Assembly: GCA_009914755.4 (NCBI GenBank)
Contig: CP068257.2
Location: 26,080,001-26,144,000 of the forward strand
DNA: 64,000 nucleotides
DNA from: the human T2T-CHM13v2.0 reference genome, Homo sapiens
Direction of reading: 5' to 3'
Shown piece by piece: positions 34,077 through 34,690 of the stretch. The translations under genes were made by a program, and so were the position numbers. How positions within the stretch are numbered: the first letter of the stretch is position 1; each line of letters begins with the position of its first letter. The notes under the pieces are model-generated. The model had not been told where the DNA came from, made no database searches, and worked only from the letters and a program-made list of their open reading frames with translations.

Positions 34077-34690
34077 TGTGTCTAGAATTTATTCCTTCCA
34101 GTGGGTTCTTGGTCTCGCTGGCTTCAAGAATGGAGCCGCAGACCTTTGCAGTGAGTGTTACAGCTCATAAAGGTGTTGCAGACCCAAAGAGTGAGCAGCA
34201 GCAAGATTTACTGTGAAGAGCGAAAGAACAAAGCTTCCACAGCATGGAAGGGCACTTGCCGCTGCTGGCTCAGGTGGCCAGCTTTTATTCCCTTATTTGG
34301 CCCCACCCACATCCTGCTGACTGGTCCATTTTACAGAGCCCTGATTGGTCCATTTTACAGAGTGCTGATTGGTGTGTTTACAATCCTTTATCTAGACACT
34401 GAGCACTGATTGGTGCGTTTTTACAGAGGGCTGATCAGTGCGTTTATTTTCCTTTAGCTAGACACAGAGCGCTGATTGGTGCGTTTTTACAGAGTGCTGA
34501 TTGGTGCATTGACAATCCTTTAGCTAGACACAGAGTGCTGATTGGTGCATTTTTACAGAGTGCTGATTGGTGCATTTACAATCCTTGAGCTAGACACAGA
34601 GCGCTGATTGCGTTTACAATCCTCTAGCTAGATAGAAAAGTTCTCCAAGTCCCCACTTGACCCAGGAAGTCCAGCTGGCTTCACTTCTCA
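34077..34690 (+). mobile_element. Solo LTR, ERV1-class (ERV9/LTR12-like), nested in L1 ORF2; TG...CA termini, 4-bp TSD ATAT
   Basis: Starts 'tgtgtctagaatttattcc' and ends 'ggcttcacttctca'. L1 reads 'ggccatat' | LTR | 'atatgtagaaa', restoring L1 'ggccatatgtagaaa'. Body 'ggtctcgctggcttcaagaatggagccgcagacctttgcagtgagtgttacagctcataaaggtg...gagtgagcagcagcaagatttactgtgaagagcgaaagaacaaagcttccacagcatggaaggg...' then CCAAT-containing tandem repeats, as in ERV9 LTR U3. Confidence 0.55.
34300..34625 (+). promoter_or_regulatory. Tandem ~55-65 bp repeats inside the LTR, each with an inverted CCAAT box (gctgATTGGtgc), 'ctagacacagag', and a terminal GATA/CCACC-like block
   Basis: '...cagagtgctgattggtgcatttacaatcctttagctagacacagag...' repeated about 5 times. 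'ctagctagatagaaaagttctccaagtccccac' at the end. Matches the known ERV9 U3 enhancer-repeat architecture. Confidence 0.5.

What the first reader, a model, noticed from the sequence alone, without database searches (positions are those of the whole stretch)
34300..34625. CCAAT-box tandem repeat array inside the nested LTR, a candidate LTR enhancer
About five tandem ~60-bp units each carry an inverted CCAAT box (ATTGG) and 'ctagacacagag'. The array ends in 'ctagctagatagaaaagttctccaagtccccac', with GATA- and CCACC-like motifs. This matches the described ERV9-LTR U3 enhancer-repeat architecture (41-bp repeats with GATA, CCAAT and CCACC motifs), which is known to act as a long-range enhancer or alternative promoter in some loci.
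Basis: partly seen in the sequence, partly recalled or inferred. Interest (0 to 1): 0.5.

Follow-up and report, generated by a model that had tools for sequence, protein, structure and literature searches.

The report
Solo ERV9 (LTR12) LTR with CCAAT-box repeats
The repeat array is real: it is the U3 region of an ordinary solitary ERV9/LTR12 retroviral LTR nested in an L1, one of several thousand well-described copies in primate genomes, with no sign that this copy does anything special.

Summary
Window 34333-34610 is the strongest tandem repeat in the 64 kb: period 66 bp, 4.2 copies, 86% match. Each 66-bp unit is a 41-bp plus a 25-bp sub-unit, and each sub-unit carries CCAATCAG on the minus strand. 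There are 10 box positions; 7 are intact and all point the same way.

The array is the U3 region of a complete 614-bp solo LTR on the minus strand (34077-34690). The LTR has TG...CA ends and a 4-bp target-site duplication (ATAT), and it sits inside an older L1. It matches published ERV9/LTR12 features:
- about 41-bp CCAAT units
- one GTGGGGA
- GGGTGGGG followed by AATAAAA
- the start-site motif at 69% of LTR length
- a U7-complementary motif in U5
- CCAAT spacings of 24/25 and 41 bp

Independent copies share the 41+25 alternation. The same LTR type flanks a gag-pol-env provirus.

It lacks the 600-bp 5' extension of LTR12C/D/E, so it belongs to a short-U3 subfamily, probably LTR12B/R66-like. 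The recurrent GATA site of the beta-globin ERV9 enhancer is absent from the repeats (TATC is TGTC). The promoter-proximal CCAAT is mutated, CpGs are decayed, and the boxes show no excess conservation.

Most likely it is an NF-Y-binding but normally silent LTR. Enhancer activity at this locus is untested. Already known; low interest.

The parts
34077..34690 (-). Complete solo LTR of the ERV9/LTR12 family, short-U3 type, 614 bp. In LTR sense it reads 5'-TGAGAAGTGAAGCC...TCTAGACACA-3'.
   Evidence: Full-length homology to independent LTR12-type copies (A1; blastn). The TG...CA termini are shared with L088, L056, L049, L005, L060 and L082, each next to unrelated flanks.
34073..34076 (.). Target-site duplication ATAT, left copie
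   Evidence: An uninterrupted L1 copy at 52150-52300 reads ...GGCTAGCC ATAT GTAGAAA... across the insertion point (A2).
34691..34694 (.). Target-site duplication ATAT, right copy
34634..34690 (-). U3 5' terminal segment, holding the single G-rich GTGGGGA motif (34650-34656)
   Evidence: The motif is named as MZF1-like in PMC11853044.
34309..34633 (-). U3 repeat array. In LTR sense the order is E1, E2, P1, E3, P2, E4, P3, E5, P4, P5. There are five 41-bp E-type units and five 24/25-bp P-type units, giving 10 CCAAT-box positions of which 7 are intact. E1 lost its box by a 3-bp deletion, E4 reads CTGAT and P5 reads CCAGT.
   Evidence: Unit map; spacings; motif positions.
34333..34610 (-). Core 66-bp tandem repeat (41+25 compound unit), 4.2 copies
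   Evidence: TRF.
34630..34635 (+). AGATAG, one of only two WGATAR motifs in the LTR. The other is AGATAA in unit E5 (LTR position 298, window 34388-34393, minus strand).
34301..34308 (-). GGGTGGGG, an Sp1/KLF-type GC box directly upstream of the TATA-like box
   Evidence: The arrangement is described in PMC11853044.
34283..34289 (-). AATAAAA TATA-like box, 35 nt (start to start) downstream of the last CCAAT position
   Evidence: The same 35-nt distance is seen in L088, L077, L056, L005, L002 and L003.
34258..34269 (-). GCCAGCAGCGGC, the LTR12 start-site motif with one mismatch to GCCAGCAGTGGC. It lies at 69% of LTR length and marks the inferred U3/R border. Transcription would run toward lower coordinates.
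   Evidence: Motif and 70% position are from PMC11853044.
34207..34212 (-). AGTAAA at the position of the R-region AATAAA poly(A) signal found in sister copies, so the signal is weakened here
34154..34168 (-). ATGAGCTGTAACACT, a U7-snRNA-complementary 'HDE-like' motif with 1 mismatch, inside the single U5 repeat element
   Evidence: The motif is defined in PMC11417402.
33926..34986 (+). Host L1 ORF2 fragment in plus orientation, interrupted by the LTR

Best explanation
The array is the U3 region of a solitary long terminal repeat of the endogenous retrovirus ERV9 (RepeatMasker family LTR12). The LTR lies on the minus strand at 34077-34690.

Origin. A provirus integrated into an older L1 and duplicated the 4-bp target ATAT. 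It later collapsed to a solo LTR by LTR-LTR recombination. The copy belongs to a short-U3 subfamily that lacks the 600-bp 5' extension of LTR12C/D/E. It is probably LTR12B-like, whose 66-bp unit is catalogued as the 'R66' repeat. In this subfamily a 41-bp E element alternates with a 25-bp CCAAT unit.

How it works. This part is inferred from family-level experiments, not shown for this locus. The seven intact, co-oriented CCAATCAG boxes are spaced 24/25 and 41 bp apart and are binding sites for the trimeric factor NF-Y. These are the spacings seen genome-wide at NF-Y-bound LTR12s, and 24 bp is the minimum for two adjacent trimers. Five sites of the form CCAATCAGCA or CCAGTCAGCA also fit the small-MAF half-site described for LTR12. 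Downstream lie a GC box, an AATAAAA box and the ERV9 start-site motif, so any transcription would initiate near 34260 and run toward lower coordinates.

Likely state. Like most LTR12 copies, it is probably NF-Y-accessible but DNA-methylated and heterochromatic, and so silent in somatic cells. It would have only latent promoter/enhancer potential, for example in germ cells, early embryo, or under HDAC/DNMT inhibition. That potential is weakened here by loss of the '-1' CCAAT box and by the absence of GATA sites in the repeats.
For: Structure:
- TRF and repeat maps.
- TG...CA ends, ATAT duplication and an intact empty-site homologue in the same window.
- No ERV9 internal sequence anywhere else in the window.

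Family:
- End-to-end alignment to LTR12-type DNA recovered from contaminated assemblies.
- About 18 further copies came from a metagenome scan. Several start with the same TGAGAGGTGAAGCC next to unrelated flanks.
- The same LTR type, 93% and 90% identical, bounds an 8.8-kb provirus with Gag MA/p30, RT, RNase H, integrase and a gammaretroviral Env. A polypurine tract lies just before its 3' LTR.

Published diagnostic features found here:
- 41-bp E elements, GTGGGGA, a GC box upstream of AATAAAA, and the start-site motif at 69% of LTR length.
- The HDE-like motif.
- CCAAT spacings of 24 and 41 bp.
- The last box lies 35 nt from AATAAAA in all copies.

Subfamily:
- L088, L077 and L056 share the 25/41 alternation, so the 66-bp unit is ancestral. 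It is not a local expansion.
- Fleming et al. name an NF-Y-bound 'R66 tandem repeat related to LTR12B'.

Silent default state:
- Literature: 19-70% of LTR12s are NF-Y-bound. Most NF-Y-bound LTRs sit in unmarked or closed chromatin and 20-27% appear active (closed/quiescent state also).
- Promoter co-option tracks the 5' extension that this copy lacks.
- Here, CpG observed/expected is 0.30.
- 12 of 36 between-unit differences are CpG transitions. Box and non-box substitution rates do not differ: 4/80 against 20/250, p=0.46.
Against: - No chromatin, ChIP, methylation or expression data for this locus could be consulted, so both 'NF-Y-bound' and 'silent' are extrapolated from family statistics.
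- Exact subfamily naming (LTR12B against LTR12, LTR12_ or LTR12F) could not be made without Repbase/Dfam consensus sequences.
- The U5 repeat period I measure in sister copies is 102-133 bp, not the published 72 bp.
- Seven of ten boxes intact is somewhat more than the roughly 45-55% expected for 8-mers at the observed divergence. Weak constraint therefore cannot be excluded with so few sites.
Confidence: 0.85

Rival explanations
1. This particular LTR has been co-opted. It acts in some normal cell type as an NF-Y-dependent enhancer or alternative promoter for a neighbouring gene or lncRNA.
For: - It has 7 intact NF-Y boxes with the spacing typical of occupied LTR12s.
- The GC box, AATAAAA and start-site motif are intact.
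- The R-region poly(A) signal is weakened to AGTAAA, which would favour read-through.
- 20-27% of NF-Y-bound LTRs carry active marks.
- LTR12 elements score as enhancers in STARR-seq and after CRISPR activation.
Against: - It lacks the 5' extension associated with LTR12-driven chimeric transcripts.
- The '-1' NF-Y site, predicted in 91% of HDAC-inhibitor-responsive LTR12s, is mutated to CCAGT.
- The repeats carry no GATA core.
- CpG is decayed and the boxes are not conserved more than their surroundings.
- Downstream on the minus strand lie only L1 sequence and an AATAAA/poly(A) end within about 2.3 kb.
- No exon or Pfam domain was found among the ten window ORFs scanned (115-202 aa).
Confidence: 0.1
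2. It is a 5'-truncated LTR12C/D/E that lost its first 600-900 bp, not a member of a short-U3 subfamily.
For: The region from 'GTGAAGCCAGCTGG' onward aligns to an internal part of the LTR12C-like contigs L002 and L003.
Against: - The element starts with TG immediately after a perfect 4-bp target-site duplication.
- At least eight independent copies begin at the same nucleotide with TGAGAGGTGAAGCC next to unrelated flanks. In two of them the flank is a proviral polypurine tract.
- The unit types differ from the LTR12C-like copies: a 25/41 alternation against long GGTGGGGAC-containing units.
Confidence: 0.03
3. It is a free-standing minisatellite (R66-type satellite), or a cellular multi-CCAAT promoter that only resembles an LTR.
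For: It has a 66-bp period, and multi-CCAAT cellular promoters do exist.
Against: - The array is embedded in a complete LTR with U3-R-U5 landmarks, terminal TG/CA and a target-site duplication.
- The whole 614 bp, not just the array, is multi-copy and also flanks a provirus.
- Cellular CCAAT dimers prefer a spacing of about 31 bp, not 24/41.
Confidence: 0.02

Closest known systems
LTR12B / 'R66' 66-bp repeat (short-U3 ERV9 LTR subfamilies LTR12, LTR12_, LTR12B, LTR12F)
   Same: - It has no 600-bp 5' extension.
- Total length is about 0.5-0.7 kb.
- The tandem period is 66 bp, built from CCAAT units.
- R66 and LTR12 are reported as NF-Y-bound (PMC3730095).
- Sister copies L088, L077 and L056 show the same 25/41 alternation.
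   Different: - The exact subfamily label could not be verified without the Repbase/Dfam consensus.
- This copy has one extra 41-bp unit (5 against 3-4), a single U5 repeat element instead of two, and a 10-bp deletion just after the start-site motif.
[quoted passage not shown]
   Same: - It belongs to the same retroviral family.
- U3 is built of tandem units of about 41 bp with CCAAT boxes.
- It has the same core promoter layout of GC box, AATAAAA and start-site motif.
   Different: - The globin LTR has 14 repeats with recurrent GATA (TCTGTATCTAGCT) and GTGGGGA motifs.
- Here there are 5 E units, all with TGTC in place of TATC, one GTGGGGA and two stray WGATAR.
- Here 25-bp CCAAT-only units are interleaved.
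- There is no experimental evidence for this locus.
LTR12C/D/E promoters activated by HDAC/DNMT inhibitors or in germ line (e.g. TNFRSF10B, DHRS2, GTAp63)
   Same: It shares the NF-Y boxes, the Sp1-type box, AATAAAA, the start-site motif and the U7-complementary HDE-like motif in U5.
   Different: - It lacks the ZNF676-bound 5' extension that characterises LTR12C/D/E and correlates with promoter use.
- The '-1' CCAAT is mutated.
Cellular promoters with paired CCAAT boxes (cell-cycle genes, TOP2B and others)
   Same: Multiple co-oriented NF-Y sites lie upstream of a GC box.
   Different: Cellular dimers favour a spacing of about 31-32 bp, whereas 24 and 41 bp are LTR12-specific. This element is a multi-copy retroelement with a target-site duplication.

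Membership tests
LTR12 (LTR of ERV9), sequence family | Retroviral LTR termini (5' TG...CA 3') flanked by a short target-site duplication | tested here: met
   TGAGAAG...GACACA with ATAT/ATAT. An uninterrupted L1 homologue spans the empty site.
LTR12 (LTR of ERV9), sequence family | End-to-end sequence homology to other LTR12 copies | tested here: met
   It aligns from U3 end to U5 with L002 and L003 (A1). Identity to L088 and L077 is 81-82% over 521-626 bp, and 90-93% to the LTR ends of L082. The label 'LTR12' for those contigs rests on published motifs and my recognition, not on a curated library.
LTR12 (LTR of ERV9), sequence family | U3 made of 5-17 tandem E elements of about 41 bp carrying CCAAT (PMC11853044) | tested here: met
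   There are five 41-bp E-type units, and 41-bp box spacing occurs four times. This is the low end of the published range.
LTR12 (LTR of ERV9), sequence family | Core promoter: Sp1-type site directly upstream of AATAAAA; start-site motif GCCAGCAGTGGC at about 70% of LTR length | tested here: met
   GGGTGGGG at 34301-08, AATAAAA at 34283-89, GCCAGCAGCGGC at 34258-69 (69% of length). One mismatch breaks the GCCA/TGGC inverted repeat. L077 keeps the same CAGCGGC core (GCCA diverged); L056 reads CAGCGCC.
LTR12 (LTR of ERV9), sequence family | U5 of variable length from tandem 72-bp B elements | tested here: inconclusive
   Copy number does vary: 1 here, 2 in L088 and L082, 3 in L004. However, the period I measure is 102-133 bp, not 72.
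LTR12 (LTR of ERV9), sequence family | The LTR type bounds a class I (gammaretrovirus-like) ERV9 provirus | tested here: met
   In L082, the same LTR ends flank Gag_MA, Gag_p30, RVT_1, RNase_H, rve/MLVIN_C and TLV_coat. A polypurine tract abuts the 3' LTR. That this provirus is ERV9 by name, and that its primer-binding site matches tRNA-Arg, was not verified (memory only).
LTR12 (LTR of ERV9), sequence family | RepeatMasker/Dfam classification | not testable with these tools
   No repeat library is available.
LTR12 (LTR of ERV9), sequence family | CCAAT-CCAAT distances of 24 and 41 bp, the signature of NF-Y-bound LTR12 (PMC4982600) | tested here: met
   Spacings are 41, 25, 41, 25, 66 (=41+25 across a dead box), 41, 24, 24.
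LTR12 (LTR of ERV9), sequence family | U7-complementary HDE-like motif AAGAGCTGTAACACT, 2 or fewer mismatches (PMC11417402) | tested here: met
   ATGAGCTGTAACACT at 34154-34168, minus strand, 1 mismatch.
LTR12C / LTR12D / LTR12E subfamilies | About 600-bp GC-rich 5' extension upstream of the repeat region (PMC8767690) | tested here: not met
   The LTR begins 34 nt upstream of GTGGGGA, directly after the target-site duplication. Sister copies start at the same base. It is therefore not filed under C/D/E.
R66 / LTR12B-type repeat | 66-bp tandem unit related to LTR12B and bound by NF-Y (PMC3730095) | tested here: inconclusive
   The 66-bp period is met. Identity to the R66 or LTR12B consensus could not be checked.
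ERV9 NF-Y/MZF1/GATA-2 enhancer module (as characterised at the beta-globin LCR) | Recurrent GATA site (TCTGTATCTAGCT) within the tandem repeats | tested here: not met
   There are 0 copies with TATC and 3 exact TCTGTGTCTAGCT. Only two isolated WGATAR occur in the LTR. Sister copies are the same.
ERV9 NF-Y/MZF1/GATA-2 enhancer module (as characterised at the beta-globin LCR) | Recurrent G-rich GTGGGGA (MZF1-like / CCACC) motif in the repeats | tested here: not met
   There is a single GTGGGGA at 34650-56, 5' of the array, and none in the repeated units.
ERV9 NF-Y/MZF1/GATA-2 enhancer module (as characterised at the beta-globin LCR) | NF-Y occupancy, open chromatin and enhancer activity at the locus | not testable with these tools
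   No ChIP-seq, DNase or reporter data are accessible.

The most novel reading that the evidence does not exclude
The 66-bp CCAAT array of this copy has one more 41-bp unit than the sister copies sampled. It might be copy-number polymorphic among humans or apes and act as a dose-dependent NF-Y platform. That could mean a tissue-restricted (germ-line or early-embryo) enhancer, or a promoter of an unannotated minus-strand RNA that influences a neighbouring gene.
Probability: 0.07. Interest if true: 0.35.

Novelty: already known. Interest (0 to 1): 0.1.

Why it matters
It matters little beyond correct annotation. LTR12 elements are a well-studied reservoir of NF-Y-dependent cryptic promoters and enhancers. 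They are active in the germ line and are reactivated by epigenetic drugs. Any single copy is of interest only if locus-specific data show activity near a relevant gene.

Three things are useful here:
- The strand and the anatomy are now fixed. Transcription, if any, runs toward lower coordinates.
- The copy is a short-U3, GATA-poor type. It is not the LTR12C/beta-globin type on which the enhancer literature is based.
- The 66-bp period is a 41+25 compound shared by the subfamily, not a local expansion.

Tried and rejected
- An Rfam scan of the whole window found no RNA family.
- A viral-contig scan with an LTR12 26-mer gave 0 hits.
- Exact-protein look-ups of two window ORFs, intended to fetch the same locus from other assemblies for repeat-number comparison, found nothing on record. 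Orthologue and polymorphism comparison was therefore impossible.
- A Pfam scan of ten window ORFs (115-202 aa), seeking neighbouring genes, gave no hits. The genomic locus and neighbouring genes remain unidentified.
- The original ERV9 papers (Ling 2002, La Mantia 1991, Lopez-Sanchez 2005) are not held in the library. The four published E-element subtypes could therefore not be matched.
- Of 4 hits in the genome-contig scan, L001 is a chance match in genuine bacterial DNA.
- Most of the 120 metagenome hits to the 18-mer were chance matches and were filtered out by blastn.
- A test for purifying selection on CCAAT boxes was not significant: p=0.06 including CpG sites and p=0.46 excluding them.
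- An IRF1 core (AANNGAAA), reported for one LTR12F enhancer, was looked for by eye in the 5' U3 segment and not found.
- I ran no further search on naming the L082 provirus, because it would not change the verdict.

Full report
**Observation**

The region reads as described. Tandem Repeats Finder gives one dominant array at 34333-34610: period 66 bp, 4.2 copies, 86% matches, score 416. It is by far the strongest tandem repeat in the 64-kb window.

The repeat finder shows that the 66-bp unit is compound. A 27-nt core containing CTGATTGGT recurs nine times, with start-to-start spacings of 24, 24, 41, 25, 41, 25, 41, 25.

CCAATCAG occurs nine times in the window against 2.7 expected. Seven of these lie between 34341 and 34570, all on the minus strand. 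'ctagacacagag' recurs at 66-bp intervals, three times exactly and once with one mismatch.

**Anatomy**

Read on the minus strand, the array sits inside a 614-bp element at 34690 to 34077. The element begins TGAGAAGTGAAGCC and ends TCTAGACACA.

The flanks are L1 ORF2 sequence. Another L1 copy in the same window (52150-52300) reads ...GGCTAGCC-ATAT-GTAGAAA... without interruption. At the locus the L1 reads ...GGCTGGCC-ATAT-[614 bp]-ATAT-GTAGAAA.... That is a clean insertion with a 4-bp target-site duplication and TG...CA termini, which makes it a retroviral LTR. No retroviral internal sequence occurs elsewhere in the window, so it is a solo LTR.

In LTR sense the parts are as follows:
- A 57-nt 5' segment with one GTGGGGA.
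- The array, in the order E1 E2 P1 E3 P2 E4 P3 E5 P4 P5. E units are 41 bp (GTCTAGCTAAAGGATTGTAAAYGCACCAATCAGCRCTCTGT). P units are 24-25 bp (AAAAAYGCACCAATCAGCRCTCTGT).
- GGGTGGGG at 34301-08.
- AATAAAA at 34283-89.
- GCCAGCAGCGGC at 34258-69.
- An AGTAAA where sister copies have the R-region AATAAA.
- A single U5 repeat element carrying ATGAGCTGTAACACT.

Seven of the ten box positions are intact. E1 lost its box through a 3-bp deletion, E4 reads CTGAT, and the promoter-proximal P5 reads CCAGT.

**Related sequences**

No primate genome is searchable here. However, LTR12 DNA is present as human contamination in public prokaryotic and metagenome assemblies.

A 21-mer from the promoter recovered L002 and L003, which are low-coverage contigs in bacterial assemblies. 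They carry a GC-rich 5' U3, CCAAT/GGTGGGGAC/ATCTAGCT repeats and the same promoter, R and U5. The window element aligns to them from its first bases to its end.

An 18-mer from the window's 5' end recovered about 18 further copies. In L088, L056, L049, L048, L096, L005, L060 and L085 the element starts at the same nucleotide (TGAGAGGTGAAGCC) next to unrelated flanks. The window copy is therefore a full-length member of a short-U3 type, not a truncated long LTR.

L082 is an 8.8-kb contig whose two ends are the 3' part and the 5' part of this LTR type. These ends are 90% and 93% identical to the window copy. Between them lie ORFs with Gag MA, Gag p30, reverse transcriptase, RNase H, integrase and gammaretroviral Env domains, and a polypurine tract abuts the 3' LTR. 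The LTR type thus belongs to a class I provirus.

L088, L077 and L056 show the same 25/41 alternation of CCAAT boxes: [E P]x3 followed by one or two 24-bp units. The window has one additional E unit. The 66-bp compound unit is therefore ancestral to the subfamily, and only the copy number varies (3-5 E units). In most copies compared (all but L049 and the four with a promoter insertion) the last box lies 35 nt from AATAAAA.

**Comparison with the literature**

The 2025 LTR12 review (PMC11853044) lists these family features:
- U3 with 5-17 tandem E elements of about 41 bp carrying CCAAT.
- A GATA site (TCTGTATCTAGCT) and a G-rich GTGGGGA.
- An Sp1 site just upstream of an AATAAAA box.
- The start-site motif GCCAGCAGTGGC at about 70% of LTR length.
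- A U5 of variable repeat number.
- Lengths from about 500 bp (LTR12F) to more than 1,300 bp.

The window LTR meets the 41-bp/CCAAT, Sp1, AATAAAA and start-site criteria. The start-site motif has one mismatch and lies at 69% of LTR length.

Haubrock et al. (PMC4982600) found that CCAAT-CCAAT distances of 24 and 41 bp are the specific signature of NF-Y-bound LTR12s. They also found that 24 bp is the minimum distance for two adjacent NF-Y trimers. Those are exactly the spacings here.

Dolfini et al. (PMC12065363) describe small-MAF half-sites that share the T of CCAAT (CCAATCAGCA). Five such sites are present here.

The U7-snRNA-complementary HDE-like motif of LTR12 (PMC11417402) is present with one mismatch.

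Fleming et al. (PMC3730095) mention an NF-Y-bound 'R66 tandem repeat related to LTR12B'. This fits the 66-bp period and suggests an LTR12B-like assignment, which I could not verify against a consensus.

**What does not match**

The element has no 600-bp 5' extension. Iouranova et al. (PMC8767690) show that this extension defines LTR12C/D/E, carries the ZNF676 site and coincides with use as a gene promoter.

The GATA string is TCTGTGTCTAGCT in all repeats here and in the sister copies, whereas the LTR12C-like L002 has three TCTGTATCTAGCT. Only two isolated WGATAR motifs and one GTGGGGA exist in the whole LTR.

The NF-Y/MZF1/GATA-2 module characterised at the beta-globin LCR is not reproduced.

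The '-1' NF-Y site is mutated here. Kronung et al. predicted it in 91% of HDAC-inhibitor-responsive LTR12s at a fixed distance from the TATA-like box (PMC5085097).

The U5 repeat period in sister copies is 102-133 bp rather than the published 72 bp, so that criterion is inconclusive.

**Function**

Shown: the sequence is a complete LTR12-family solo LTR with seven consensus NF-Y boxes and an essentially intact core promoter pointing toward lower coordinates.

Inferred from family-level data:
- NF-Y occupies 19-70% of LTR12 copies depending on the cell line.
- Most NF-Y-bound LTRs lie in unmarked or closed chromatin, and 20-27% carry active marks.
- Activation occurs mainly in germ cells or early embryo, or under HDAC/DNMT inhibition, and predominantly for LTR12C/D/E.

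Sequence indicators at this copy are those of a neutrally decaying, germ-line-methylated element:
- CpG observed/expected is 0.30.
- One third of between-unit differences are CpG transitions at two sites per unit.
- Substitutions are no rarer in the CCAATCAG boxes than elsewhere once CpG sites are set aside: 4/80 against 20/250, p=0.46.
- Divergence from a small-sample consensus of the non-repetitive part is about 5%, which is a lower bound. This fits an old ERV9 subfamily.

Downstream on the minus strand there is only L1 sequence and a polyadenylated end about 2.3 kb away. None of the ten ORFs scanned (115-202 aa) has a Pfam domain.

My best estimate is therefore an NF-Y-competent but normally silent LTR (0.85 for the whole statement). 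I give about 0.1 for genuine co-option as an enhancer or promoter.

**Verdict**

The element is an ordinary, already catalogued kind of repeat. It is of a subfamily less associated with regulatory co-option than the LTR12C type on which the enhancer literature rests. Locus-specific function cannot be assessed without chromatin and expression data. Interest is low.

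Noticed in passing
window 32334-34996: The LTR's host looks like one L1 retrotransposition event on the minus strand. In order along the plus strand: a T29 run at 32345-32373 (the poly(A) tail) with an AATAAA-type signal just inside; about 660 bp of unique non-L1 DNA at 32374-33035, a possible L1 3' transduction; the L1 3' end at 33036-33925; then an L1 ORF2 piece in the opposite orientation at 33926-34986, a twin-priming-type 5' inversion. Direct repeats ACTGATTTAC at 32334-32343 and 34987-34996 bracket the whole. The LTR inserted later into the inverted piece.
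   Followed up: partly
window 9551-9700 (and ORFs 8798-9406, 9375-9695, minus strand): A 42-bp tandem repeat (3.6 copies, 72% match) lies inside unusually long minus-strand ORFs of 202 and 106 aa in a relatively GC-rich patch. The 202-aa ORF has no Pfam hit (the 106-aa ORF was not scanned). It is probably another repeat element but is unidentified.
   Followed up: partly
window 34154-34168 (minus): The LTR's U5 carries ATGAGCTGTAACACT, one mismatch from the 15-nt motif complementary to the 5' end of U7 snRNA. That motif was recently reported to mediate U7-dependent repression of LTR12 transcription.
   Followed up: yes
window 60000-62040: The GC-rich stretch is L1 5'UTR-like sequence, interrupted by an Alu at about 61660-62030 and followed by L1 ORF1-like sequence. 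It is not a CpG-island promoter. The Alu confirms primate origin.
   Followed up: partly
window 50533-52374: A second L1 in the window also shows adjacent segments in opposite orientations: 50533-51577 is antisense and 52080-52374 is sense relative to the same L1 region. It served as the empty-site control for the LTR insertion.
   Followed up: no
L002, L003, L004 (GTDB genome contigs); L005, L048, L049, L054, L056, L060, L062, L077, L082, L085, L088, L096, L113 and others (metagenome contigs): Human LTR12 DNA, and in L082 a near-complete gammaretrovirus-like provirus, is present in assemblies deposited as bacterial genomes (Actinomadura, Arthrobacter, an Acidobacteriaceae MAG) and in gut and skin metagenomes. 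This is host contamination.
   Followed up: partly
window 34190-34260 vs L088/L077/L056: Relative to sister copies, this LTR has a 10-bp deletion immediately after the start-site motif. It also has a single U5 repeat element whose 5' half resembles the first and whose 3' half resembles the second of the two elements in sister copies. This suggests an unequal-recombination deletion.
   Followed up: partly
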